NCBI GenBank assembly: GCA_035479295.1
Contig: DATIIV010000033.1
Span: forward strand, 2,901 to 66,900
Origin: Candidatus Saccharimonadia bacterium
GTDB lineage: Bacteria > Patescibacteriota > Saccharimonadia > UBA4664
DNA length: 64,000 nt
Direction of reading: 5' to 3'
Shown here: piece by piece, positions 1 through 40,421 of the stretch
How positions within the stretch are numbered: the first letter of the stretch is position 1
Layout: each line of letters opens with the position of its first letter
Translations under genes and position numbers: made by a program
The notes under the pieces: generated by a model
Told to the model about the DNA's origin: nothing
Databases searched by the model: none
Seen by the model: the letters and a program-made list of their open reading frames with translations, nothing else

Positions 1-396
1 GATGCTACGCCCAGCATCGGCCTGCCAATTCTCGGTCTTGTCGCTGCCGGTCAGCCAATCGAGACTCTAGGTACGCACGCCGAGACACTTGAGGTGCCGC
101 CATTTATGGTGGGCCGGCGCAACTCGTACGTGCTCCAGGTTAAAGGTGATTCTATGATCGACGAGGGCATCAATAACGAAGACTTCGTCGTAGTTCAAGA
201 GAAAGAGGTGCCCTCAAACGGCGAGATGGTCATTGCGCTCATCAATGGTCGCGAGGCCACCCTCAAACGCTACTACAAAGAGAAGGGTCATATCCGGCTG
301 CAGCCATCCAACGCTGCCATGGAGCCTATCATCATTAAGCCGGGCACGCCAATCGAGATCCAGGGCGTGGTGATCGGCCTGATTCGGAAGTACTAG
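1..396 (+). CDS. lexA: LexA repressor, 5'-truncated at window edge (S24 peptidase C-terminal domain present)
   Basis: Frame 1 is open from nt 1 and reads GLPILGLVAAGQPIE...VKGDSMIDEGI...GEMVIALINGREATLKRYY, a LexA linker plus catalytic Ser/Lys domain signature. Confidence 0.85.
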   Translation, partial: DATPSIGLPILGLVAAGQPIETLGTHAETLEVPPFMVGRRNSYVLQVKGDSMIDEGINNEDFVVVQEKEVPSNGEMVIALINGREATLKRYYKEKGHIRLQPSNAAMEPIIIKPGTPIEIQGVVIGLIRKY

Positions 397-2655: not shown

Positions 2656-3606
2656 TCAAGCCGCAGTTAATGTCGGTCGATCCGGCATGGCCAACGCCTG
2701 CATGAGCGCCCGGGCCAGGCGGTAGCGGCCAGCTTCCTGATGATGCGCGATGAGCCGACCAACCGGTTGACGGTGCTGGGCGTCGTGCAAAAAGAAGGTG
2801 TCGTCGGCATAAGTCTTAAGAAACTGAGCCGGCGCCGCACCGGGCGTGAGCGCCTGAACATGATGGGCCAGGAGCACAAAAGCGTCGTAGCAGTCGCGTT
2901 GAGGCTTGCTGGCATTGCGCAGGGGCCGAGCCAGATCCAGTGCATACTGAAAGGTGCGAGCCAGCTGCAGAAACTCGTCGGTGTCGAGCAGGATGTCGAG
3001 AGCGTTATCGAGTGCATCGGCGTAGCCTGCCGAGGCCGGGGCCAGCTGCTCAATCTTAACCTCGTGCTCCTCGAGAAACAGCTCCACGGCCTGCCACGTA
3101 GCAGCTAGTTTGGTCTCTAGCGCGGCCTTGGCTTTAAGGCCAAAGTCGCCGGTCTGGACCTGGCCCAGATAGTCCACTAGCAGGCTGGCCGGTGGCAGCT
3201 CGTCCAATAATTGAGCCAGATCGGTCACCGACAGCTTGGTGGTGAGGTAGACACTGAGGCAGTTAGCCGGCAGCAGCCGTAGCTGGTTTGGCCGTACAAA
3301 GTAAGCTTGCGCGCCCGGCTCTTCGTGCGGCGGCCCGGTTACAAAGCTCATATGCTGCATGTGAGTAATGGTGTGGGTGTACTTTAAAATATCGTCGGCA
3401 CTTATGGCTGTTAGTCGCCGCCGTTGCAATATTCTGGCTATCTTAAGCCATTGCTTGTGAGCTAGGGCCATCATAGCGGCCGGCTCTTCGCACACGATCA
3501 GCGCGGTGCCTAGGTGCTGTCGGGCGTGTAGGTGGCGCATTACGTCGGCCGCCAGGTTAGTCTGCTCTAAGTGAATCCGTCGGCGAGTCTCTAGATATCG
3601 CGCCAT
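2656..3606 (-). CDS. Hypothetical protein (316 aa)
   Basis: Long ORF with GC3-rich codon usage. No motif recognised. Confidence 0.4.
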   Translation of the reverse strand: MARYLETRRRIHLEQTNLAADVMRHLHARQHLGTALIVCEEPAAMMALAHKQWLKIARILQRRRLTAISADDILKYTHTITHMQHMSFVTGPPHEEPGAQAYFVRPNQLRLLPANCLSVYLTTKLSVTDLAQLLDELPPASLLVDYLGQVQTGDFGLKAKAALETKLAATWQAVELFLEEHEVKIEQLAPASAGYADALDNALDILLDTDEFLQLARTFQYALDLARPLRNASKPQRDCYDAFVLLAHHVQALTPGAAPAQFLKTYADDTFFLHDAQHRQPVGRLIAHHQEAGRYRLARALMQALAMPDRPTLTAA

Positions 3607-3636
3607 TGTGCTGTGCCTCCAACCATTTGTTCTTTT

Positions 3637-4305
3637 TTATAGTAAATGGTGCTGTCGAAAACTAAAATAGTCTGTTTTGCTAATAATCAGATGATCGCGC
3701 AGAGCCACCCCCAGGAGCTGCCCGGCCGCCGCCAGTTGTTGCGTAAGTGTGATGTCTTGCGCGCTGGGGTTAAGGTCGCCCGACGGATGATTGTGGGCCA
3801 CAATCACGCTGGCGGCGCGGTCTACAATGGCGTCGGCGAAGACCTCGCGCGGATGAGCCAGCACCGTGTCGAGCGTGCCGATGGTAACGATGCGCTGAGC
3901 GATCAGCCGCTGGCCGCCGTCGAGCGATAGCGCCACCACGTACTCTTGCTGCTTGGTGCGAATATCGTCGAGCCGAGCCACGATGTCGCTCATGGTGCGC
4001 AGCGGCTCGATGTCTTTGATGAGGTGGCGCTTGGCTAGCTCCATGGCGGCCAGCAGCTTGCCGGCGTGGGCCGTGCTGACGCCATGAAGGTTAGTAAGAG
4101 CCTCGTAGCTGAGGCCCGAGGCGCCTTTTTGCAGGAGCTTCTGCACCTGTCGGGCGATCTGGCCGACGTCGGCGCCGGCCGTACCGTTACCAATGAGTAC
4201 CTCGAGCAGCTCGAAGTCGGACAGGGCGGCCGCGCCCTTGCGCCGCAGCTTTTCGCGCGGACGGTCGAGGGCGGGTAATTCGTGGATGCGGCGGCGTTTT
4301 GGCAT
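3637..4305 (-). CDS. radC: RadC-like JAMM family protein (UPF0758)
   Basis: N-terminal LPALDRPREKL... HhH region and C-terminal JAMM motif HNHPSGDLNPSAQD. Confidence 0.8.
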   Translation of the reverse strand: MPKRRRIHELPALDRPREKLRRKGAAALSDFELLEVLIGNGTAGADVGQIARQVQKLLQKGASGLSYEALTNLHGVSTAHAGKLLAAMELAKRHLIKDIEPLRTMSDIVARLDDIRTKQQEYVVALSLDGGQRLIAQRIVTIGTLDTVLAHPREVFADAIVDRAASVIVAHNHPSGDLNPSAQDITLTQQLAAAGQLLGVALRDHLIISKTDYFSFRQHHLL

Positions 4306-4519
4306 ACCATGCAGTGTAGCAGAGGCTGCCGGCTGCGACCATCTCAGCGCTTCCTCAGCTGGTCTTGGTACGATCTGCTCGTCGATTCTTGCCCAACCAC
4401 TCCCTTAAGGTGAGCTTCGGCATAACACCATCGGCCCCTCGCGGGGCCGATTTTTTGGTTGAGCCAGCATATTATTGACAAATCCGGTCATTAGATAGAG
4501 CATAAGAAGTAAGCAATTT

Positions 4520-4966
4520 ATGGTGGGCACTATGTTCAAACATCTCCGCAGCAAGCAAGGTTTTACGCTCCTCGAGCTCTTGATCGTCATCGTCATCATT
4601 GGTATCTTGGCGTTGTTGATCATTCCTAATATCACCTCGGCGCCCAAGAAGGCGCGCGACACCCAGCGCAAGACCGACCTTAAGGCCATTCAAAAGGGCC
4701 TCGAGGAGTACTTTGTGTCGAATAACGTCTACCCCAACGCTCTCAGTGATCTCACGGCCAGCAACCCGCCGATCCTGAAGACGGTGCCGACCGACCCCAA
4801 GAATAGCGGCGAGTACGTTTACACCTACACTCCAGCTAACACCAACAGCACCTACACGCTGCACGGTTGTTTGGAGAATGGCGGTGATTCGGGCACCGGT
4901 GTGGTGAGCGGCGACTCGGCCTGCACCAGCACTAGCAAGGGCTTCCAGCTGGTTAACAACAACTAG
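4520..4966 (+). CDS. Type IV pilin / pseudopilin with prepilin-type N-terminal cleavage/methylation domain
   Basis: MFKHLRSKQG|FTLLELLIVIVIIGILA is a classic class III signal. Start is ATG at 4520 or 4532. Confidence 0.75.
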   Translation: MVGTMFKHLRSKQGFTLLELLIVIVIIGILALLIIPNITSAPKKARDTQRKTDLKAIQKGLEEYFVSNNVYPNALSDLTASNPPILKTVPTDPKNSGEYVYTYTPANTNSTYTLHGCLENGGDSGTGVVSGDSACTSTSKGFQLVNNN

Positions 4967-9605: not shown

Positions 9606-10145
9606 TTAATCGCGCAAAACGGTGATGTGGCCCGTCTCGGCGATCTGAATAAGTTTGGAGGCGCGAGTGCTGGTGCGGCCGCGGCGATAAAAATCGACCG
9701 CGTCGCCAAAGTAGGCCCGCGCCTCGGCCAGCGTGGCAGCCGGCGGCAGCCCCTCAGGGTTGGCGCTTGGCGCGATCAGCGGGCCGGCCTGCCGCAAAAA
9801 CCGCCGTAGCGCCGGCTTGCCCGGCAGCCGAAACGCCAGGCTGCGTGTGCCACGGTGCAGGTACGCCAGGTCGGCCCGCGGGCAGGGCAGAATCACGCTG
9901 ACCGGCCCCGGCCAGTAGGCGCTTAGCTGCTGCCGGAGCTCGGCCGTCGGCTCGATGCCGAAGCCCGCCAGATCCTCGTAGCGGCCAATCAGGATGATGC
10001 ACGGCTTGCTCGGCCGGCGGTGCTTGAGCTGATAGACCCGCTCTACGGTCGCGCGGTCCAGCGCCGGCGCTACCACGCCGTACAACGTGTCGGTGGCCAA
10101 GACGCCCACGCCACCCGCCCGCAAAATACCGATTACCCGTTTCAT
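9606..10145 (-). CDS. tsaC: L-threonylcarbamoyladenylate synthase, TsaC/YrdC family
   Basis: VLATDTLYGVVAPALD...VYQLKHRRPSKPCIILI matches the YrdC fold signature. Confidence 0.8.
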   Translation of the reverse strand: MKRVIGILRAGGVGVLATDTLYGVVAPALDRATVERVYQLKHRRPSKPCIILIGRYEDLAGFGIEPTAELRQQLSAYWPGPVSVILPCPRADLAYLHRGTRSLAFRLPGKPALRRFLRQAGPLIAPSANPEGLPPAATLAEARAYFGDAVDFYRRGRTSTRASKLIQIAETGHITVLRD

Positions 10146-10400
10146 TTATTGCGCCAGGTCTTTCTTAATAATCTCTTTGCGAAGCCACATCCGATCAGCC
10201 CTAGCTACGTTGCCATCGAACGTTACGCCCAATAACTCACTAATCCAGGCCCGCACCTTAGCCGGAATGCTCTCGTTCCACGGCGCCGCACTAGCGGCCT
10301 GAGCCGACTGGCCTTGCCGTTGCAGTAGCTCCGCGTAGGCAATGATGCCGGCGTAGGCGTCTATATCTAAATAACGCGAGCCCGAGGTAACGATGCGCAT
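10146..10400 (-). CDS. Small hypothetical protein, possible DHH-phosphoesterase N-terminal fragment
   Basis: IVTSGSRYLDIDAYAGIIAYAELL resembles the DHH motif I/II region (DxD...AYG) but the ORF is only 84 aa. It abuts the tsaC start. Confidence 0.25.
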   Translation of the reverse strand: MRIVTSGSRYLDIDAYAGIIAYAELLQRQGQSAQAASAAPWNESIPAKVRAWISELLGVTFDGNVARADRMWLRKEIIKKDLAQ

Positions 10401-10521
10401 GGTGCTTTCTGACCGTGATTAATGTCGGGCACAATAGTACCATTGGTTACGAGTTTTTGCACGTGCACACATAGGAATACATTGAGCAGTAGGCCCGACG
10501 TGCCGTATAGTTAATACACTT

Positions 10522-11358
10522 ATGCTTAAACCACGACCAGCCTGGCACATTGACGCAAAATGGGTCTGCGCCATCTTGCTCATGGGTTTGCTGGCGGTGA
10601 CATTGCCGGTGGTGGCGCTCTTTCGGTTGACGCAGATGGGGCCGGCCACCACCATCATTGCCTATACGCTGGTGGGGCTCACCAGCCCGCAGGGGATCGA
10701 TAGTCCGGCCGGCCTCGAAGAGCTGACGGCCAAGGTAGCGGCGACGGGTAGCGAGACGTTAACGGTGAGTGGTGTGGCGGTGACGATCACCCGAGCCGAC
10801 GTCCAAAAGCTGTCGCCGCGGCAGTTGCGGCTCAAAGTGTTTGGCGCCTTTGCAGCCGAGTTTTACCGGCTGGGCGCCAAAGGCGTGGCCGCGAGCCACC
10901 AGGCCAGCCCGGCCGACGCCACCAAGCTCCAGAGCGATGCGACCGCGCTCAGCTTCTTTACCAGCCAGAACCACGCGCGGATTGGCCTCGTGGCGGCGCT
11001 GCTAGTGGGCCTTAGCGCGCTGCTGACCGGGCTGCTAGTGCTCTTTAGTTACCGGGTGGGTCGGCTCGTGAGCCCCGGCCTGGTGCTTGGCTGGATGGGC
11101 GCGTCCGGGTTGGCGCTGGCGGCCGTAGCTACACACCTGGGCGCTCTACCGGCCGGCACCGCTCGTCCCGCCAGCGCCGACGGCCCCCTGGCGCTGGCCA
11201 GCGGCTTTGCTAACTATTTGGCGCCATTGGTGGTGCCGTACCTGGCTAGTACCTACCTGGCAGTGCTCGGCGCCGGGTTATTCCTGCTGGTATTGGCCGT
11301 GCTCGTTCGCCTGGTGATAGCAGTTAAGCGCCGCCGCTCGCCTCATTTACCCGCCTAA
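10522..11358 (+). CDS. Hypothetical membrane protein
   Basis: 278-aa ORF with several TM segments. No motif. Confidence 0.45.
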   Translation: MLKPRPAWHIDAKWVCAILLMGLLAVTLPVVALFRLTQMGPATTIIAYTLVGLTSPQGIDSPAGLEELTAKVAATGSETLTVSGVAVTITRADVQKLSPRQLRLKVFGAFAAEFYRLGAKGVAASHQASPADATKLQSDATALSFFTSQNHARIGLVAALLVGLSALLTGLLVLFSYRVGRLVSPGLVLGWMGASGLALAAVATHLGALPAGTARPASADGPLALASGFANYLAPLVVPYLASTYLAVLGAGLFLLVLAVLVRLVIAVKRRRSPHLPA

Positions 11359-11421
11359 GCTCATAATTTTTTATAATATCCTCCACATTACTAGCCACGC
11401 GCCTCCCGCTATAGTTGGGTC

Positions 11422-12324
11422 ATGGAATCGATTGGGCACGAAGCAAAGACCGTTCTGGTCACCGGTGGCGCCGGCCATGTGGGATCGCACGTCATCGAGC
11501 AGCTGCTGGCCCAGTATCCGGCCTATCGCGTCATCTCGCTCGACAACTACTCCAATGGCCATACCCTCAATCATATTGCCGGCGCCGAGTATCGGGCCGG
11601 CGACACCAAGAACATCGCTCGCGAGGTGCCGGAGCAGCCCGACATCGTCTACCACCTGGGCGAGTACGCTCGCATTGCGCCATCGTTTACTGAACCCGAG
11701 CGCGTCTACGAGCTCAATGTGCAGGGCACTTTTGCCGTCGCCGAGTTCTGTCGGCAGCGGGGCGCCAAGCTAGTTTATGCCGCCTCGAGCACCAAATTTG
11801 CCATTGAGGGCGATGGCCGCCACCAAAATCCGTACTCGTTTACCAAGGCCACCAATGTCGATCTGATCAACGATTATGGCCGTTGGTACAACCTGCCCTA
11901 TGCCATTTGCTATTTTTATAATGCTTATGGTCCGCGCGAAAAGGGCACCGGCCAGTACGCCACCCTCATCGCCAAGTTTGAGCAGAAATATCTGCGCGGC
12001 GAGCCGTTTACAGTGGTGCGTCCAGGCACGCAAAAGCGCAACTTTACCTATGTAGGTGATCTGGCGCGCGGCCTCATTCTAACGGGCGAGCGTGGCCAGG
12101 GTGATGGCTATGCGCTTGGTAATACCAACGGATTTTCCATTGTAGAAATAGCCGAAGCCTTTGGTGGGCCCATCGAGTACATCGACGGCTACCCAGGCCG
12201 GGCCGAGTCGGGCCAGGCGCCCACCAAGGCGCGCCAGGAGCTGGGCTGGGATACCACGGTGGATATTCTGGACTACATTCGCGACTTTGTGCGGGAGCAC
12301 CCGCGGGCGGGGATTAACCGCTGA
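11422..12324 (+). CDS. NAD-dependent epimerase/dehydratase (extended SDR)
   Basis: VLVTGGAGHVGSHVIEQLL Rossmann motif plus Y...K catalytic region YSFTKA. Confidence 0.8.
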   Translation: MESIGHEAKTVLVTGGAGHVGSHVIEQLLAQYPAYRVISLDNYSNGHTLNHIAGAEYRAGDTKNIAREVPEQPDIVYHLGEYARIAPSFTEPERVYELNVQGTFAVAEFCRQRGAKLVYAASSTKFAIEGDGRHQNPYSFTKATNVDLINDYGRWYNLPYAICYFYNAYGPREKGTGQYATLIAKFEQKYLRGEPFTVVRPGTQKRNFTYVGDLARGLILTGERGQGDGYALGNTNGFSIVEIAEAFGGPIEYIDGYPGRAESGQAPTKARQELGWDTTVDILDYIRDFVREHPRAGINR

Positions 12325-13424: not shown

Positions 13425-13736
13425 CTAACGAATGACCAGCAGAGCCACAAACGTCAGCATGAGCAGCACCAAGAACGATGCCATGGTGTAGCCCAGCAAC
13501 TCCAGCGCCGCTCGCTTCTTGCCGTCGATGTACCACATGAGTGGTTGGCCAAATACCAAAATGCCCATTAACGCCGCTGAAAAGACCAGCAGCATAAGTG
13601 CCGCGACCGGTGCTAGCGCCGTGTCCTTCTGCCCAAAGATGCGCGAGGCGTTCGACATAAAGAGCCCCACCGCCGTAATGTAGGCGAATGCCGCCAAGGC
13701 ATTGGTGGCTGCTCGTTTGACGATAGTTGATTTCAT
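13425..13736 (-). CDS. Small 3-TM membrane protein
   Basis: 103-aa hydrophobic ORF. Confidence 0.4.
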   Translation of the reverse strand: MKSTIVKRAATNALAAFAYITAVGLFMSNASRIFGQKDTALAPVAALMLLVFSAALMGILVFGQPLMWYIDGKKRAALELLGYTMASFLVLLMLTFVALLVIR

Positions 13737-13837
13737 GGGCTTATTATAGCGGCAAAGCGATAAAGAGACTATAAGGAAGTCCTTGCGTTCGATAAAATAT
13801 AACCGAAACTAACCACCCACCAAGGACAACAACCTCC

Positions 13838-14272
13838 ATGCCAACGATCAACCCCTACATCAACTTCAACGGCAATGCCGAAGAAGCCTTTAATTTTTAC
13901 AGATCGGTGTTCGGGGGAGAGTTCGAAACGATTATACGCTTCAAAGATCTCAAAAGCCCGGAGCTTCCTATAGCCGAAAACGAGGCCAATAACATTATGC
14001 GCATTACGTTGCCTATCGGAGAAAACACGCTCATAGCCAATGATGTGCCCGAGAGTATGGGGCCAGTCAATGAGCAAGAGAATCGGTCTAAGATATCGGT
14101 TAGCGCGCAAAGCCGGGCCGAAGCCGACAAAATCTTCGCGGGGCTTACGCCGGGCGGAACGATTGAAATGCCGCTGAGCGATAGTCCGTGGGGTACTTAT
14201 TTTGGAATGTTTAGGGACAAATTTGGTATTGAGTGGACGGTGGAATTCGAAGGAGACAAGAAAGAAGCCTGA
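13838..14272 (+). CDS. VOC-family (glyoxalase/PhnB-like) protein
   Basis: INPYINFNGNAEEAFNFY...GIEW matches the PhnB-like VOC fold. About 45% GC. Confidence 0.75.
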   Translation: MPTINPYINFNGNAEEAFNFYRSVFGGEFETIIRFKDLKSPELPIAENEANNIMRITLPIGENTLIANDVPESMGPVNEQENRSKISVSAQSRAEADKIFAGLTPGGTIEMPLSDSPWGTYFGMFRDKFGIEWTVEFEGDKKEA

Positions 14273-14299
14273 TTGAGGCTTCTTTTCGTTGGATAGTTC

Positions 14300-14330
14300 C
14301 TGGCTCCGCATAGTGAAGGACGTTAGAACC
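14300..14330. repeat. Direct repeat copy A, tRNA-3'-end-like att-type sequence
   Basis: ctggctccgcatagtgaaggacgttagaacc matches the 16972-17002 copy at 28 of 31 positions. It shares ttcctggctccg with the 3' end of tRNA-Asn at 17438-17449. Confidence 0.5.
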
Positions 14331-14449
14331 GTTGTGTCGTCTTTAGCGCTTAACATAAGCAAAATATTTATTTGTTTACATTCAACTTGCCAATGTAAAC
14401 AAAACAGGCTATTCTGTTTACGTTAACTAACGAGATGTAAACAAACCGT

Positions 14450-15610
14450 ATGAGTGTCATAGGCAACTACCGAAAGCAGCCGAAAGGCTTTAACGCTTTT
14501 ATTCCTAATTCATTTCCCCCGACGGAAGAGATTGCGATATCAAGGGAATTGTCTCAGAAACATACTGAGGCCGTTAGGCTCGTGGGCAAGCTAGACGGTA
14601 TTACCGAATTGCTCCCAGACAAAGATTATTTCTTGGAAATGTTTGTTCGCAAAGATGCATCTTCTTCAAGTCAGATAGAGGGAACAAAAGCCACGATGAT
14701 GGACGCCATTGAAGCGGCCAACATCGAGCGTGGATCAGATCTTCCCGATGACGTTGATGATATTCTTCATTACATTAATGCATTAAATTTCGGGCTCAAG
14801 CGCGCAAAGGAGCTCCCATTAAGCCTGCGGCTTATTCAGGAGCTGCATGAAAAACTCATGACCGACGCGCGAAGCACACATAACGCTTATCCGGGAGAAT
14901 TCCGCCGTAGCCAAAACTGGATTGGTGGAACAAGACCAGATAACGCCCGATTTGTGCCGCCTCCGGTTCATGAAATGAAGCAAGCGCTAGGCGAGCTTGA
15001 GAACTTCGTGTATGGAGAAGACAACTACCCTCCACTCATCAAGGCGGGACTGATTCACGCTCAATTTGAGACTATCCACCCTTTTGCAGATGGTAACGGG
15101 AGAACGGGGCGTATGCTGGTCACTATGTATTTATGGCAGCTTAAGCTACTTGAGATGCCGCTCCTATATCTTTCGGCTTACTTCAAGCAGCACCAGGACG
15201 CGTATTACGAGCGGCTCAATGGCTACCATTCGAAGGACGGGCATATCGATAGGTGGTTAGATTTTTTCATGGACGGGCTGATTGACACTGCCAAGTCGGC
15301 TATTACGACGTGCCAGAAAATCACCGCTTTGCGGGAGGAAGATATGCGTAAGGTGCAGCAACTCGGACGCGTATCGGCCCCGACCACAATCGAAGTGCTC
15401 AGAAACCTTTACAGGTTGCCCACCGTGGGCGTCGCAGATATTGCGGAGTGGACGGGCTTCACGCGCCCTGGAGCCTACAAGATGATAGATCGATTGGTAA
15501 AGATGGAAATACTTAGCCCCATCAAGGAACCGGGTTCTTATGGGCAGAAGTATACATATCGCAGATATGTCGAACTGTTTACTGATGAATCAAACGAAAA
15601 AGAGGCTTGA
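14450..15610 (+). CDS. Fic family protein (class II: internal inhibitory motif plus FIC core)
   Basis: FIC motif HPFADGNGRTGR. Upstream SSQIEG fits the [ST]xxxE[GN] inhibitory helix. Low GC. Confidence 0.85.
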   Translation: MSVIGNYRKQPKGFNAFIPNSFPPTEEIAISRELSQKHTEAVRLVGKLDGITELLPDKDYFLEMFVRKDASSSSQIEGTKATMMDAIEAANIERGSDLPDDVDDILHYINALNFGLKRAKELPLSLRLIQELHEKLMTDARSTHNAYPGEFRRSQNWIGGTRPDNARFVPPPVHEMKQALGELENFVYGEDNYPPLIKAGLIHAQFETIHPFADGNGRTGRMLVTMYLWQLKLLEMPLLYLSAYFKQHQDAYYERLNGYHSKDGHIDRWLDFFMDGLIDTAKSAITTCQKITALREEDMRKVQQLGRVSAPTTIEVLRNLYRLPTVGVADIAEWTGFTRPGAYKMIDRLVKMEILSPIKEPGSYGQKYTYRRYVELFTDESNEKEA

Positions 15611-15756
15611 AAAAGCCTCTTTTTAAACATAAGTTCTTTGGCTCCCCCTAGCCAACTTGTTCCCGAACCGAGAGGTTGAGCTGGAAAGCGACCTGTCCGC
15701 AACGGAAAAGCTAATTTCCAGCCTCGGCCTGGCTCTAAGCTGATAAAATCAATCCT

Positions 15757-16257
15757 ATGAAAACTATCTGCTCACTCGTAATTTCTGCCGACGGCCTCAT
15801 CGCCTATCCCGATGGCCGAAGCGTCTCATCCGACTACAACTGGCAAGTCTTCCAGCGTGAGGCTCACGACCACAACAACTTTATCGTCGGTCGGCGCACT
15901 TTTGAGCTGGCTACAGATGCGCTGGCCCAAGTTAAGTGCGACCACAAAATCATCGTTTCATCTCGCGCCGATCTGACTATCCCGCCAGGCTTCACTGTAG
16001 CCGCCACACCCCAGGCTGCCCTTGGCCATCTCAAAGACAAGGTCGAAGCCACCTACCTCGTCGGCGGTGCGGGCATCAATACTAGCTTTGCGGCTGCTGG
16101 TCTCATTGATGAGCTGGTCCTAACGGTCGAGCCAAAAGTGATTGGAGCAGGGGAGCATATGTTTTCGAGCGCCTTGAATGATGTAAAGCTGGAATTGCTA
16201 GAGTCTGAGCCTTTGCCAGACAATCGCATCCGCCTAAGCTATAGGATTGCCAAATGA
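15757..16257 (+). CDS. Dihydrofolate reductase family protein (RibD C-terminal domain-like)
   Basis: MKTICSLVISADGLIAYPDG...FIVGRRTF matches the YwjB/RibD_C pattern. Confidence 0.7.
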   Translation: MKTICSLVISADGLIAYPDGRSVSSDYNWQVFQREAHDHNNFIVGRRTFELATDALAQVKCDHKIIVSSRADLTIPPGFTVAATPQAALGHLKDKVEATYLVGGAGINTSFAAAGLIDELVLTVEPKVIGAGEHMFSSALNDVKLELLESEPLPDNRIRLSYRIAK

Positions 16258-16850
16258 CCAAATACGTCGTAAATTCTGGCGGCATCTTTAATGGCGGCGA
16301 CATGGGCCGCGCCTTTTTCAACGAGGTCATCAAAGGCTTAGGCTCAAGCCCCATCATCCTCATGTGCTTTTTCGCTAGCCCACGCGAAGAGTGGCAAGAG
16401 AGGTTTCCTAAATACACCGATGGCTTTAAGGCTGTTCTCTCGGATAGGGTTGACCCAACGTTTGAATTAGCCTTGCCCGAAAAGTTCGCGGCGCAAGTAG
16501 CCGCGTGTGATGCCCTCTACATGCACGGCGGCGACAACGACCGCATTATGACTGCATTGCGCCAATACGACCTGCCAAAAACGTGGGACAACAAGGTTGT
16601 AGCCACCAATTCGGCCAGCTCAATCGCTTTAGCGGCCCACTCATGGACCTGCGACGAGCGCAAATGTGTTAATGGCTTGGGCATCTTACCTATCAGGTTC
16701 ATCGCCCATTACCAATCAAATTATGGGGCTGACGACCCACGCGGGCCGATCGACTGGCAAAAAGGCTACGATGAATTGGCCGCCTATGGCGGTCAAAGCC
16801 TCCCCATCTACGCGCTCAAAGAAGGCGAGCTTAAAGTATTTGAGGGTTAG
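16254..16850 (+). CDS. Peptidase E-like / class I glutamine amidotransferase-like protein (S51 family, putative)
   Basis: LYMHGGDNDRIM...ATNSASSIALAAH nucleophile-elbow-like region. Translationally coupled to the upstream gene through an ATGA overlap. Confidence 0.5.
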   Translation: MTKYVVNSGGIFNGGDMGRAFFNEVIKGLGSSPIILMCFFASPREEWQERFPKYTDGFKAVLSDRVDPTFELALPEKFAAQVAACDALYMHGGDNDRIMTALRQYDLPKTWDNKVVATNSASSIALAAHSWTCDERKCVNGLGILPIRFIAHYQSNYGADDPRGPIDWQKGYDELAAYGGQSLPIYALKEGELKVFEG

Positions 16851-16971
16851 CCACTCGACTAGAGTGAGCTAGCGCGACACGGCTCGTTTTATAGCCTCAA
16901 AGACGACGCTGAAATAAGTGTTGCCATGAGGCACATATCGATTTGATGGCTTCTTGCGTAAAAAATGATAA

Positions 16972-17002
16972 CTGGCTCCGGATCGTGGAGGACGTTAGAA
17001 CC
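16972..17002. repeat. Direct repeat copy B, tRNA-3'-end-like att-type sequence
   Basis: ctggctccggatcgtggaggacgttagaacc, paired with 14300-14330. Confidence 0.5.
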
Positions 17003-17034
17003 ACCGGAAAACGATCGTTGATACCCCCTCATGG

Positions 17035-17388
17035 CTATATAAGCATGTAGGAATATGCCAACAGCGTTACCGTGCCACCTAGGAGCGCTGCCAGGCCAAG
17101 AATTACGAGGGTCACGAACTTATCATCACGCATAGTTTTCTTGCTCGTTAGCACCAGCGGCAATGCCCCCAGGAGCGCAAATCCCCAGTAAACGACTTGC
17201 GCCAGGCCATCGCTACTATGATAGGGGGCAACTGCGCTACTGCAGTGATTGCCGCAATCGAGGTGACCTATGTCGGCGCCCCAAATGATCAAAAAGAAAG
17301 CCAGAGCGCCCACCGCCAAACAGCAGGCAAACAAAAAACCGAGGGATAAGAGGATGCCGAGAACAGAGGGTTTCTGAGGCTCTTTCAT
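17035..17388 (-). CDS. Hypothetical small membrane protein (low GC)
   Basis: The longest ORF would overlap the tRNA, so the start is placed at the internal ATG at 17388 (MKEPQKPSV...). About 45% GC. Confidence 0.4.
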   Translation of the reverse strand: MKEPQKPSVLGILLSLGFLFACCLAVGALAFFLIIWGADIGHLDCGNHCSSAVAPYHSSDGLAQVVYWGFALLGALPLVLTSKKTMRDDKFVTLVILGLAALLGGTVTLLAYSYMLI

Positions 17389-17443
17389 TATGGTTAAGTA
17401 TAGCAAAAAAGAGACCTTAAGCCTCTTTTTGATAAATAATTCC

Positions 17444-17518
17444 TGGCTCCGGAGGTCGGGCTCGAACCGACGACCCAACGGTTAACAGCCGTTTGCTCTA
17501 CCACTGAGCTACTCCGGA
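17444..17518 (-). tRNA. tRNA-Asn (anticodon GTT)
   Basis: Reverse complement folds as a cloverleaf: acceptor TCCGGAG / CTCCGGA, D-arm TAGCTCAGTGGTAGAGCA, anticodon loop CTGTTAA, T-arm GTCGGTTCGAGCCCGAC, discriminator G, encoded CCA. Confidence 0.85.
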
Positions 17519-19195: not shown

Positions 19196-20998
19196 TTAAG
19201 CAGCTTGATTGAGATGCGGTCGAGTCCGATCAAGGACGGCCATAACCCGGCGCCGAGTCTGCAGCACGATATCCTGAGCGGCCTGCTGAAACTGGCGGCC
19301 GCGATCTTCGCCTTGCTCGGCCGAGCGCAGAAGGTCGGCCAGGGTTAGGAAGTCGGGGCTTAGTGCGAGACCCTTGCCTGCCGAAAACCGGGCGGCCCAC
19401 GGGTCGTCGGAGGGGCGAGTCATTTGGTGGCTGGCAAATAAATCGTTCATTTGGGCGGAATATTGCTGCCAGGCGGCCGCTAGCTCGGTCTTTGACGGGT
19501 CCGCCGCCTCTTTGGGATGCTCCAAGAGCTGAGTGTGTGCTTTAAGGGCGCTAAAGAGAGCACTGGCGCTGCGCATCGTACGGTTAAGCCCTGATAGGCC
19601 TTTAGCCTCCAGCGTTCGTAACTCCACCGCGGTGGAAGCATCTCCCTGGATGTCTTCACTGCTTCGTTCCATAATGCCGCCGTTACCCTTGCAGGCCCAG
19701 CCGCCCTCAGGAGCGGTTGATGCTTGTTCCAGCCGTTCGGCACTACAGCTCCAACCGGTAGCCTCCAGCCCGTGCAATAAGGTATACACCTCATTGCCGG
19801 CCGGGCCGTTAGTACTGACTTCGGCGCCCGTAAGATGCAGCGGATACGAATACTCATTGCGGAGAAGGTCGGCCTGCATCAGGGCCTGGACTTCGCGCGT
19901 GTGGGTGAGGTAGCTGTAAGCCGGGCGAGGGGCGAATTCCCACATGGCGTCGCTACCCGCTGGTATACCCAGTTGCTCGCTGTGGCGATAATTGGCTTGT
20001 CGCTGGTAGGCTCGAGCCTCTCGCTCCTCACTAGAAAGGTTCAAGTTGTCATCAACTAATAATGACTCTTCTTCGATCTCTACTTCTATGCCTAGCGTGG
20101 TGCTATAAGGCGAGGGATTGTCCTCTTGATAGGCGGCAATAATTAGTCGCTCTTTAAACTGCTCAGGAGTGTGCGACGATAAGGGGCGCTCCATCAGAAC
20201 CCAGAGATTCTGGAGCGTCTCCGAACGCTTACCGGAGCCCTGGGAACTAACCATAAGATCAGGTTTTCGGCGAAGGCTCTGCCCAAAGTCTGGGTCGTTC
20301 ACGCTGTCATTAAAGAATTCTTGGGCATAGGCCAGAGCCAGGACTTCGGGACGAGATATCGTCCGGAAGTAGTTGAGAGCTTCTGCCCGCTGGCCGCGGT
20401 GACGAACGCCTTTAACATACTCATCGAGCCAGCCCTCTACGTGCTGCTGCCATTGTTCCCGGCTCGCCTCCGAGGTGGCTCGGTGCTCAATGGCCGAGGC
20501 TACGAACAGCGCATCGTTCATCTTGTAACTGCGGTACTCTGGGTCTGGTTCGGTGGCGATAGCATGGGACGCATAGGCAGCGAGGTGGGGTAGTAGCTGG
20601 TCGTCACCCAATCGAGCTAGGGCGACACGCAATGGTTGTTCCATTTTGCCCTGTTGAACAACATAATCAGCAATCTCGGGCACATTTTCCCTCGTAGCAG
20701 CGGCGTTTACCAGACTGGCACTAAGCTCCGGTATAAGCCTGCCTTGGCTAAGTTCTTGGAGTACGGCATGGGCGGCTGGAGCTCCTTCTTGTCGAAACTG
20801 GCGTAGTAAGGCTACGGCACGTGTCTTCTCGGCGTCACTGGGCTTCAGCTTTAATTGGATAGCTGCAAACTCGTGAGTCAGGGCCGTCAGATCCTCCTGG
20901 TTCGTCTCACTGGTGTTGGCTGTGAGGTCGCGGTAGGCGTCGGCGCCCTGAAAGTCCGGCTTGTCACCATGATGGGGCGAGTGGTGCTCGTAGTTCAT
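19196..20998 (-). CDS. Large hypothetical protein (600 aa)
   Basis: Long GC3-rich ORF with no recognised domain. Confidence 0.45.
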   Translation of the reverse strand: MNYEHHSPHHGDKPDFQGADAYRDLTANTSETNQEDLTALTHEFAAIQLKLKPSDAEKTRAVALLRQFRQEGAPAAHAVLQELSQGRLIPELSASLVNAAATRENVPEIADYVVQQGKMEQPLRVALARLGDDQLLPHLAAYASHAIATEPDPEYRSYKMNDALFVASAIEHRATSEASREQWQQHVEGWLDEYVKGVRHRGQRAEALNYFRTISRPEVLALAYAQEFFNDSVNDPDFGQSLRRKPDLMVSSQGSGKRSETLQNLWVLMERPLSSHTPEQFKERLIIAAYQEDNPSPYSTTLGIEVEIEEESLLVDDNLNLSSEEREARAYQRQANYRHSEQLGIPAGSDAMWEFAPRPAYSYLTHTREVQALMQADLLRNEYSYPLHLTGAEVSTNGPAGNEVYTLLHGLEATGWSCSAERLEQASTAPEGGWACKGNGGIMERSSEDIQGDASTAVELRTLEAKGLSGLNRTMRSASALFSALKAHTQLLEHPKEAADPSKTELAAAWQQYSAQMNDLFASHQMTRPSDDPWAARFSAGKGLALSPDFLTLADLLRSAEQGEDRGRQFQQAAQDIVLQTRRRVMAVLDRTRPHLNQAA

Positions 20999-36823: not shown

Positions 36824-36899
36824 TGGTAGGCCCGGCTGGATTCGAACCAGCGACCAGTACCTTATAAGAGTACCGCTCTAACCGCTGAGCTACGGGCCC
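36824..36899 (-). tRNA. tRNA-Ile with anticodon TAT (UAU)
   Basis: Reverse complement is GGGCCCGTAGCTCAGCGGTTAGAGCGGTACTCTTATAAGGTACTGGTCGCTGGTTCGAATCCAGCCGGGCCTACCA. It folds as a cloverleaf with anticodon loop CTTATAA, U33, A37 and discriminator A73. Confidence 0.7.

Positions 36900-38612: not shown

Positions 38613-38689
<77 letters not shown>

Positions 38690-40346: not shown

Positions 40347-40421
<75 letters not shown>

What the first reader, a model, noticed from the sequence alone, without database searches (positions are those of the whole stretch)
14300..17002. 31-bp direct repeats resembling tRNA 3' ends bracket the Fic segment
ctggctccgcatagtgaaggacgttagaacc (14300-14330) and ctggctccggatcgtggaggacgttagaacc (16972-17002) match at 28 of 31 positions. 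Both share the ttcctggctccg core with the 3' end (CCA side) of tRNA-Asn at 17438-17449. This pattern is expected for attL/attR or serial integrations that duplicate the tRNA 3' end. The 2.6 kb between them (Fic, DHFR-like, peptidase-E-like) would be one module, and the 0.44 kb between repeat B and the tRNA a second remnant.
Basis: seen in the sequence. Interest (0 to 1): 0.55.

Follow-up and report, generated by a model that had tools for sequence, protein, structure and literature searches.

The report
Serine-integrase scars beside tRNA-Asn

Summary
Repeats A (14300-14330) and B (16972-17002) match at 28/31, with none expected by chance. They lie in a low-GC stretch downstream of tRNA-Asn(GTT) (17444-17518, minus strand).

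They are not copies of the tRNA 3' end. Only TGGCTCC(GGA) is shared with the tRNA. The other ~20 nt is the element-side (P') arm of an attachment site.

In intact elements from other Patescibacteria, the same 30 nt are the last codons of a large serine recombinase (LSR) gene (...N-W-L-R-I-V-E-D-V-R-T). The attP therefore lies inside the integrase gene. On integration the gene is fused to the antisense of the tRNA.

The P' arm carries the T-loop motif (T)TNGAACC exactly 5 bp further from the core than it lies in the tRNA. This is the attP/attB offset described for serine integrases.

The island is a stack of three recombinase-less remnants: Fic | RibD_C + S51-like | small ORF. The tRNA-proximal junction carries no LSR gene.

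A related contig (L028) has the same Fic module next to a resident LSR element at tRNA-Asn.

How the remnants get stacked is unresolved.

The parts
17444..17518 (-). tRNA-Asn(GTT), the integration target. Its 3' end (discriminator + CCA + acceptor, TGGCTCC on the + strand, 17444-17450) is the core shared with all junctions.
   Evidence: ARAGORN; Rfam tRNA 69.6 bits. Homologous LSR genes end inside tRNA-Asn in L023, L028, L032, L007 and L033.
17405..17443 (.). Left arm of the tRNA-proximal junction T: a bidirectional terminator-like hairpin, a T-run and the spacer GATAAATAATTCC. No LSR gene is present. The junction looks like an unoccupied attB or a heavily deleted attR.
   Evidence: Sequence; alignments A1 and A2. 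The last 9 nt, AATAATTCC, resemble the last codons AATAATAAC of the L028 LSR. Similarity to the last 55 nt of that gene gives z = 4.3.
16973..17002 (+). Junction B: core TGGCTCC (16973-16979) + 23-nt P' arm (16980-17002). It reads W-L-R-I-V-E-D-V-R-T. The remnant tail ORF runs to 17047.
   Evidence: HMM E 4.2e-8; 28/30 identical to the 3' end of the intact LSR gene of L019 (my count on the sequences).
17035..17391 (-). Module 3 (B to T): a small ORF of 118 aa with no family match, read by eye as a membrane protein (not tested).
   Evidence: no Pfam or PHROG match.
15757..16850 (+). Module 2 cargo (M to B): a RibD_C/DHFR-like reductase (15757-16257) and a weakly S51-peptidase-like protein (16254-16850).
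   Evidence: Pfam.
15639..15669 (+). Junction M: core TGGCTCC (15639-15645) + a decayed P' arm of the '...FRT' tail type with one extra C. It is preceded by the Fic terminator hairpin (15597-15625) and a 13-nt spacer.
   Evidence: It is positionally homologous to L028 site 5930, the attL of a resident LSR element. By the HMM alone it is not significant (core only, E 33).
14450..15610 (+). Module 1 cargo (A to M): a Fic-family protein (Fic_N + Fic, with weak sub-threshold MarR-type HTH matches at the C-terminus).
   Evidence: Pfam. The whole module, including both flanking junctions, is 77% identical in DNA to L028 4577-5942.
14371..14445 (.). Two palindromic TGTTTAC...GTAAACA repeats upstream of Fic. 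They are operator-like and probably part of the Fic promoter, not of the att site.
   Evidence: Inverted repeat I1; conserved upstream of Fic in L028 and L029.
14301..14330 (+). Junction A: core TGGCTCC (14301-14307) + 23-nt P' arm (14308-14330). It reads W-L-R-I-V-K-D-V-R-T. The remnant tail ORF runs to 14423.
   Evidence: HMM E 1.3e-8; 29/30 identical to a site in metagenome contig L018 (my count on the sequences).
14264..14300 (.). Left arm of junction A: the terminator hairpin of the VOC gene, a T-run and the spacer CGTTGGATAGTTCC.
   Evidence: (D3: 14278-14308 vs 17421-17451, 81%).
13838..14272 (+). A VOC/glyoxalase-family gene inside the low-GC stretch. It may be older cargo or host flank. 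No scar was detected to its left.
   Evidence: Pfam; GC profile; HMM scan negative.

Best explanation
A and B, with the decayed site M between them, are junction scars left by separate integrations of small mobile elements. These elements use a large serine recombinase (LSR) to insert into the 3' end of tRNA-Asn.

In intact elements of this family the attP sits inside the last codons of the integrase gene itself (...S-P-F-N-L-V-L-E-L-A-D-x-P-N-W-L | R-x-x-E-D-V-R-T...). The W-L codons TGGCTC are the antisense of the tRNA's ...GAGCCA end.

Recombination within (G)CTCC has two products:
- It fuses the integrase ORF to the antisense of the tRNA. This is attR.
- It leaves the displaced tail codons (the P' arm) at the far end of the element, next to whatever lay downstream of the tRNA. 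This is attL.

Each 31-mer is therefore the core plus the P' arm. That explains why A and B agree with each other, and with sequences from unrelated Patescibacteria, well beyond the part shared with the tRNA.

The P' arm carries the tRNA T-loop motif (T)TNGAACC 5 bp further from the core than it lies in the tRNA. This is the offset expected if the recombinase's zinc-ribbon domain reads the same motif in attP and attB.

Shown here: the sequence relationships, the junction architecture in relatives, and the 5-bp offset.

Inferred: that an LSR catalysed these particular events; that the three modules (Fic | RibD_C + S51-like | small ORF) are what remains after loss of the recombinase genes; and that new elements insert at the tRNA-proximal junction (accretion).
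For: 1. The motif is coding on the window's + strand. In 15 metagenome loci it reads W-L-R/P-phi-phi-E/K-D-V-R-T, with codon-like variation.

2. In L019 it is the C-terminal end of a 530-aa protein with Resolvase + Recombinase + Zn_ribbon_recom domains.

3. That protein has more than 1500 homologues, the best 120 at 70-100% identity. All share ...NWL. After that point 34/120 clearly continue as tRNA antisense (e.g. WLRGQDSNLRPID). A further 62/120 stop within 6 residues, as does P0046, whose stop lies inside the tRNA in L023. About 16/120 carry the ...VRT/FRT tail.

4. Complete integrated elements show the predicted attL and attR:
- L023: LSR 10001-11518 overlaps tRNA-Asn 11504-11578; attL at 2611.
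- L032: LSR runs into tRNA-Asn; attL at 3444.
- L007: a 100-codon LSR remnant reads into tRNA-Asn, followed by four downstream scars.

5. A prediction held. A 'WLG' tail implied tRNA-Gln, and the LSR in L031 ends in tRNA-Gln(TTG).

6. L028 comes from a related genome (Fic 91% aa identity, tRNA region 87% nt). It has the same Fic module with both junctions. There the M-equivalent is the attL of a resident LSR element that ends in tRNA-Asn.

7. GAACC lies at +14..18 after TGGCTCC in every tRNA arm and at +19..23 in every P' arm examined except the decayed M, which has one extra base. This matches the 5-bp shift of the zinc-ribbon-domain motif reported for serine integrases (PMC3783163).

8. An HMM of external sites finds only A and B in the window. 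GC is low across 13750-17500.
Against: - No LSR gene or sizeable LSR remnant is in the 64-kb window. The enzyme is inferred from relatives only.
- The tRNA-proximal junction T is not an LSR-tRNA fusion.
- Junctions A, M and T have a terminator-like left arm rather than recognisable LSR coding sequence. The route by which recombinase-less modules became stacked is not explained by canonical attP x attB chemistry.
- M is not significant by the HMM alone.
- The metagenome sample was drawn with a pattern that fixed GGTTCTAACGTCC, so conservation of that part is overstated in that sample. The protein-based sample is independent of it.
- No recombination was observed directly. No read data were examined.
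Confidence: 0.85

Rival explanations
1. The sites are not dead scars. They are still-active att sites of non-autonomous cassettes (P' arm + cargo + terminator-like arm). A family LSR encoded elsewhere would move them in trans, making tRNA-Asn an integron-like capture platform.
For: - The Fic module with both flanking sites is conserved as a unit (77% nt) in L028 but has different neighbours on both sides.
- Left arms of W_A, W_M, W_T and L028 s2-s4 share one terminator + spacer consensus.
- The P' arms of A and B are nearly consensus.
- In L025 an intact LSR is followed by further small modules.
- Arrays of 3-6 sites are common.
Against: - No LSR is in the window.
- Canonical serine integrases do not recombine two attL-type sites.
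- Some modules in L021 are only ~400 bp with no gene.
- M is frameshifted and decayed.
- No circular forms were seen, because no read data were available.
Confidence: 0.25
2. This is a classical tRNA island made by a tyrosine integrase. A and B would be displaced copies of the tRNA 3' end.
For: An 11-12-nt identity with the tRNA-Asn 3' end, the same orientation as the tRNA, and a low-GC island.
Against: - No tyrosine integrase was found in the island or among the large ORFs tested.
- 20 of 31 nt do not match the tRNA.
- The repeats match LSR gene ends instead.
- In relatives the gene abutting the tRNA is an LSR.
Confidence: 0.04
3. This is an integron-like attC cassette array lacking its integrase (CALIN). 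GTTAGAA in the repeats would be an R' core site.
For: - GTTAGAA resembles GTTRRRY (a resemblance recalled from memory).
- The cargo is single accessory genes of the kinds I recall as typical of integron cassettes (VOC, DHFR-like, Fic; GNAT and a toxin in L007).
- L007 sites c2 and c4 have an inverted copy of the motif beyond the hairpin.
Against: - No complementary R''/L'' arm exists at A, B or M.
- No IntI is present.
- The motif is fully accounted for as LSR tail codons plus a T-loop mimic.
- Rfam and structure searches gave nothing.
Confidence: 0.02
4. The repeats are decayed pseudo-tRNA fragments from duplication of the tRNA-Asn gene, each with a 5-nt insertion, or they are a shared regulatory or terminator-associated motif.
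For: GGTTC...GGAGCCA looks like a T-arm plus acceptor end. Hairpins lie next to each copy.
Against: - ARAGORN and Rfam find no tRNA-like remnant.
- Variation among copies is codon-like on the opposite strand.
- The same 30 nt end an intact recombinase ORF.
- The 5-nt offset is constant across unrelated genomes.
Confidence: 0.03

Closest known systems
Phage/ICE large serine integrases (phiC31, Bxb1, A118/LI integrase) and their attP/attB architecture
   Same: The domain set is the same: Resolvase + Recombinase + zinc ribbon. The site sizes inferred here (half-sites of ~25-30 bp) fit the short 40-50-bp sites described for these enzymes (abstracts). A motif repeated in attP and attB is shifted by 5 bp (vs PMC3783163). 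A small excisionase-like HTH protein is encoded just upstream.
   Different: The target is the 3' end of a tRNA gene. [quoted passage not shown] The attP lies inside the integrase's own last codons, so integration swaps its C-terminal tail. The best match in characterised phages or plasmids is only 35% identity.
SCCmec / SCC composite islands (Ccr large serine recombinases at the 3' end of rlmH/orfX)
   Same: From memory: LSR-mediated insertion at the 3' end of a conserved gene, direct repeats at every junction, and tandem stacking of elements and recombinase-less remnants next to the target gene. The window and its relatives show the same picture.
   Different: The target is a tRNA, not rlmH. 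There is a single LSR gene rather than ccrAB, and the att site overlaps the recombinase ORF. No membership is claimed, and relatedness to Ccr was not tested.
Islander-type tRNA/tmRNA genomic islands (tyrosine integrases)
   Same: An island downstream of a tRNA, bounded by a fragment identical to the tRNA 3' end. The tRNA is restored by element sequence. Tandem arrays are known (PMC4383910).
   Different: The recombinase family is different. The identity block is only ~5-12 nt. The rest of the repeat is an element arm, not tRNA.
SSV1-type integrases and integration-dependent immunity of mycobacteriophages (attP inside a coding gene)
   Same: From memory: attP lies within an ORF, so integration changes the protein. 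SSV1 integrase is split. In BPs/Brujita the repressor loses a C-terminal tag. Here integration replaces the last ~10-35 residues of the integrase.
   Different: Those systems use tyrosine recombinases. Here only the extreme C-terminal tail is exchanged, and a functional consequence is not shown.
CIME/ICE accretion (cis-mobilisable elements of streptococci)
   Same: From memory: recombinase-less remnants flanked by att sites accumulate next to an integration site and can be co-mobilised by a resident element. This matches the stacked modules seen here and the shared Fic module in L028.
   Different: That system uses a tyrosine integrase and is conjugative. No mobilisation has been shown here.

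Membership tests
attL-type junction of a large-serine-recombinase integrative element | A short core identical to the chromosomal target (attB) | tested here: met
   TGGCTCC(G) is shared by A, B, M and the tRNA-Asn 3' end. In L023 the attL and attR arms diverge immediately outside GCTCC.
attL-type junction of a large-serine-recombinase integrative element | The arm next to the core equals the attP arm of an LSR element | tested here: met
   A and B are 28-29/30 identical (my count sequences) to the 3' ends of an intact LSR gene (L019) and to other sites (L018). HMM E ~1e-8.
attL-type junction of a large-serine-recombinase integrative element | An LSR gene within the element | tested here: not met
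   No LSR or sizeable remnant is in the 64-kb window. One is present in the relatives L023, L028 and L032. Hence 'scar', not an active element.
attL-type junction of a large-serine-recombinase integrative element | A partner junction attR (element arm + target) at the other end | tested here: not met
   Junction T has a terminator-like arm and no LSR ORF. Only AATAATTCC resembles the last LSR codons. attR is present in L007, L023, L028 and L032.
attL-type junction of a large-serine-recombinase integrative element | attP half-site motif displaced 5 bp outward relative to attB (zinc-ribbon-domain motif) | tested here: met
   GAACC lies at +19..23 in A, B and the P' arms of L019, L025 and L023 (+20..24 in the decayed M), against +14..18 in the four tRNA arms. 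Definition from PMC3783163.
attL-type junction of a large-serine-recombinase integrative element | Recombination by the cognate enzyme at a central dinucleotide | not testable with these tools
   The crossover is narrowed only to (G)CTCC, by arm comparison.
Tyrosine-integrase tRNA island (Islander signature) | A tyrosine integrase gene in the island | tested here: not met
   None in the island. None among the large ORFs of the window that were scanned.
Tyrosine-integrase tRNA island (Islander signature) | The displaced fragment is a copy of the tRNA 3' part | tested here: not met
   Only 11-12 nt match. The rest needs a 5-6-nt gap and still differs.
Integron cassette array / CALIN | attC sites with paired R''-L''/L'-R' arms able to fold | tested here: not met
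   No complementary arm at A, B or M. The hairpins are ordinary terminators.
Integron cassette array / CALIN | An IntI integrase near the array | tested here: not met
   No tyrosine recombinase was found among the scanned ORFs.
SCCmec-like composite island | Ccr-clade LSRs and the rlmH target | not tested
   The target here is tRNA-Asn. Relatedness of the LSR to Ccr was not examined. Only the stacking behaviour is similar.

The most novel reading that the evidence does not exclude
A large, undescribed clade of serine integrases targets the CCA end of tRNA genes. Targets seen here are tRNA-Asn and tRNA-Gln in Patescibacteria, tRNA-Asn in Legionella adelaidensis, and tRNA-Leu in a gut virome contig. 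The attP is embedded in the integrase's own last codons. The enzyme would read the universal T-loop motif in both partners with the 5-bp attP/attB offset. Integration swaps the enzyme's C-terminal tail, a possible built-in switch of stability or directionality. Repeated use of the site builds integron-like stacks of recombinase-less gene modules at the tRNA. The window would be one such stack.
Probability: 0.35. Interest if true: 0.8.

Novelty: new variant of a known kind. Interest (0 to 1): 0.6.

Why it matters
In itself, the window holds a decayed genomic island. Its value lies in what the repeats lead to: a very abundant family of serine integrases whose target is a tRNA gene. The family has more than 1500 proteins with E <= 1e-20, and the best 120 are 70-100% identical.

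The 2014 survey of tRNA islands stated that this behaviour was unknown for serine recombinases. My searches of the held library found no description of it.

If confirmed:
- It gives a natural example in which attP and attB share a recognisable motif with the 5-bp offset.
- It identifies a conserved, nearly universal landing site (the tRNA T-loop and CCA end) for serine integrases. That is of interest for genome engineering.
- It explains a recurrent hot spot of accessory genes in the tiny genomes of Patescibacteria (Fic, toxin-antitoxin, restriction-modification).
- It tells annotators that integrase ORFs ending in '...WLRGxDSN...' are fusions with an antisense tRNA.

Tried and rejected
1. Comparative 'empty site' approach. 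The 600-aa right-flank protein has no homologue at all, so close relatives with an unoccupied locus could not be fetched.

2. Viral scan for the repeat. It gave only two chance hits inside coding sequence.

3. My first genome contigs pattern had 11 Ns where the window repeats have 10. By luck it hit L007, which has the same architecture.

4. attC/integron reading, prompted by the inverted arm in L007 c2/c4. Rejected for the window because there is no second arm.

5. tRNA-like or other RNA structure. Rfam finds only the tRNA itself.

6. A possible fourth scar left of the VOC gene (13810-13834). Not supported by the HMM.

7. The two small ORFs read as membrane proteins, 13425-13736 and 17035-17391, as paralogues. 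No similarity.

8. The left arm of B as an LSR remnant. It shares only TGATAAC with distant LSR genes, which is not significant. Against the cognate-lineage LSR (L028) the left arms give z = 1.6-4.3 (W_M only 0.8). This is suggestive for T and B but not decisive.

9. Placing the crossover by dyad symmetry. Different criteria gave different centres. It is only narrowed to (G)CTCC.
Full report
**1. Observation**

The two 31-mers exist as described. 14300-14330 and 16972-17002 match at 28 of 31 positions. They are the only matches in the window, and none occurred in 100 shuffles (family D2).

ARAGORN places tRNA-Asn(GTT) at 17444-17518 on the minus strand with CCA encoded, so the gene's 3' end points towards the repeats.

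- Repeat A shares TTCCTGGCTCCG with 17440-17451.
- Repeat B shares CTGGCTCCGGA with 17443-17453.
- The other ~20 nt of the repeats do not match the tRNA. GAACC can be aligned only by opening a 5-6-nt gap.

GC falls to 43-53% over about 13750-17500, against 58-67% on both sides.

Genes in this stretch:

| Coordinates | Strand | Product |
|---|---|---|
| 13838-14272 | + | VOC/glyoxalase protein |
| 14450-15610 | + | Fic |
| 15757-16257 | + | RibD_C/DHFR-like protein |
| 16254-16850 | + | weakly S51-like protein |
| 17035-17391 | - | small ORF with no family match, read as a membrane protein (not tested) |

No integrase is in the island, and none is among the larger ORFs of the window that I scanned. 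The source is a Candidatus Saccharimonadia MAG.

**2. A fourth junction**

Aligning the intergenic regions showed that the space after Fic has the same layout as the spaces before A and before the tRNA. Each has a hairpin with a T-run, about 12 AT-rich bases, then (T)TGGCTCC.

I call this site M (core 15639-15645). The junction at the tRNA is T.

**3. What the repeats are**

A pattern scan of reference genomes hit one MAG contig, L007. My pattern had one N too many, so this was luck. In L007 a tRNA-Asn is followed by a string of similar sites, each next to a terminator.

A corrected scan of metagenomes gave 15 loci. On the strand opposite to the tRNA, which is the window's + strand, the motif translates as W-L-R/P-phi-phi-E/K-D-V-R-T. 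Variation sits at third positions or swaps hydrophobic residues.

- In L019 and L009 the motif is the end of a long ORF.
- The L019 ORF has Resolvase, Recombinase and Zn_ribbon_recom domains, so it is a large serine recombinase (LSR).

This protein has 1541 homologues at E <= 1e-20. The best 120 are 70-100% identical, and named ones are from Patescibacteria. All end ...SPFNLVLELAxxPN-W-L. After that they fall into classes:

| Class | Count of 120 | Example |
|---|---|---|
| 'VRT/FRT' tail | about 16 | as in repeats A and B |
| Clear antisense translation of a tRNA 3' end | 34 | WLRGQDSNLRPID, where DSN = GATTCGAAC, the T-loop |
| Stop within six residues | 62 | P0046, whose stop lies inside the tRNA in L023 |

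**4. Test of the model in complete elements**

- L023: the LSR gene (10001-11518, +) overlaps tRNA-Asn (11504-11578, -). About 8.9 kb upstream lies terminator + TTGCTCC + a P' arm encoding LLPLLDKFRTANW.
- L032: the same arrangement in an 8.1-kb element.
- L007: a 100-codon LSR remnant reads into the tRNA.
- L031: a tail beginning WLG predicted tRNA-Gln, and the LSR indeed ends in tRNA-Gln(TTG).

The elements carry restriction-modification genes and a small HTH_17 protein that matches excisionases.

The attP therefore lies in the integrase's own last codons. Integration fuses the ORF to the antisense tRNA (attR). It leaves core + tail codons at the far end (attL). A and B have exactly the attL right half. 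By my count on the sequences listed, A is 29/30 identical to a site in L018 and B is 28/30 identical to the L019 gene end. A and B are therefore independent copies of a conserved site, not a local duplication.

**5. The closest relative**

The best Fic homologue (91% aa identity) lies on contig L028. The features of L028 are:

- a tRNA-Asn 87% identical to the window's;
- an LSR gene reading into it, split by one frameshift;
- scars at 1567, 3425, 4599 and 5930.

Window 14278-15651 aligns with L028 4577-5942 at 77%. The whole Fic module, with both junctions, is shared.

In L028 the M-equivalent (5930) is the attL of the resident LSR element. This has two consequences:

- M is a real junction.
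- The arrangement [Fic terminator-spacer-core-tRNA] once served as attB.

M's arm is of the FRT tail type with one extra C. By the HMM alone M is not significant.

**6. Mechanistic detail**

After TGGCTCC, GAACC lies at +14..18 in all four tRNA arms and at +19..23 in the P' arms of A, B, L019, L025 and L023. In the decayed M it lies one base further out.

Rutherford et al. showed that the zinc-ribbon-domain motif of a serine integrase is present in attB shifted 5 bp towards the centre relative to attP (PMC3783163). The P' arm thus mimics the tRNA T-loop region at the attP spacing. The same DNA motif is read as D-S-N in fused proteins and as V-R-T in unfused ones.

In the sites the Arg codon is AGA or CGA in all but one (CGG). 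This points to a constraint at the DNA level.

Arm comparison in L023 and in scars whose first two bases vary (AG, GT, TT, AT...) limits the crossover to (G)CTCC. The exact dinucleotide is not determined.

**7. What remains open**

The window has no LSR. Junctions A, M and T have terminator-like left arms.

Stacks of scars are the rule in this family:

- six sites in 3 kb in L021;
- an intact LSR followed by further scars in L025;
- an older scar outside the attL of L032.

Left arms within a lineage share one consensus. They resemble the last 55 nt of the cognate LSR gene only modestly: z = 4.3 for T, 3.4 for B, 1.6-3.1 for most others and 0.8 for W_M.

Three routes could produce the stacks:

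- insertion into an occupied tRNA-proximal junction, as in SCCmec or CIME accretion;
- en-bloc carriage of older scars;
- deletions bounded by the essential tRNA.

I cannot discriminate among them. Canonical attP x attB chemistry alone does not produce such stacks.

**8. Comparison and novelty**

This is a genomic island at a tRNA, which is a known kind. The recombinase family, the attP inside the integrase ORF, and the T-loop mimicry are not what is described for such islands.

- The text of the large LSR survey held in the library does not contain 'tRNA'.
- My other searches found nothing on this family.

These searches cover open-access text only, so prior description cannot be excluded.

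The family has no close relative in characterised phages or plasmids (best 35% identity). The two best hits nevertheless show the same architecture:

- In Legionella adelaidensis the homologue's ORF (...PKWLPGQDLNL*) ends inside tRNA-Asn.
- In a gut virome contig it ends in tRNA-Leu.

**9. Verdict**

- The window feature itself is a relic.
- The family behind it is a new variant of a known kind and deserves follow-up.

Noticed in passing
L033 (Legionella adelaidensis NCTC12735, NZ_LR134433.1) 3001-4546; L034 (MT837677.1) 841-2389: Distant homologues (34-35% identity) of the Patescibacteria LSR show the same architecture outside that group. The Legionella ORF (WP_084758891.1) ends ...PKWLPGQDLNL* inside tRNA-Asn(GTT). 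A gut 'Bacteriophage sp.' contig has the ORF running into tRNA-Leu(CAG).
   Followed up: partly
L031 3325-4944 / 4825-4899: A family member with the tail 'WLG...' reads through tRNA-Gln(TTG). The family has therefore switched between tRNAs that share the ...AGCCA end.
   Followed up: partly
L021 1500-4600; L025 11501-13300; L032 2560: Dense stacks of scars: six in 3 kb in L021, several after an intact LSR in L025, and one outside the attL of L032. Some modules are only ~400 bp with no gene.
   Followed up: partly
L007 3340-3400 and 5560-5620: Two scars in L007 carry an inverted copy of the P' motif (CGTGGACGTTAGAAAT / CGTGGACGTTGGAAAT) about 15 nt beyond the terminator hairpin. This gives an attC-like look. 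It is unexplained.
   Followed up: no
window 14371-14445: Two palindromes, TGTTTAC-N-GTAAACA, lie upstream of Fic and are conserved upstream of Fic homologues in L028 and L029. They look like operators. If the weak, sub-threshold MarR-type HTH matches at the Fic C-terminus are real, Fic may regulate itself through them.
   Followed up: no
window 17462-17516: In assembly GCA_964451975.1 two contigs end inside tRNA-Asn with a 55-nt overlap, and a Logan contig also stops at 17462. The tRNA is an assembly break point. This is probably because the 55-mer is shared with other organisms in the sample, or because of structural variation at this locus.
   Followed up: partly
window 36824-36899: A tRNA-Ile with anticodon TAT, which I recall as uncommon in bacteria (not checked), lies near two tRNA-Met(CAT) genes (38613-38689, 40347-40421).
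   Followed up: no
window 19196-20998 (-): A 600-aa protein with no Pfam domain has no homologue in the 5.8-billion-protein collection other than itself.
   Followed up: no
L028 11172-12676: The LSR gene of the closest relative is split by one frameshift between the Resolvase and Recombinase domains. This is either recent decay or an assembly error.
   Followed up: no
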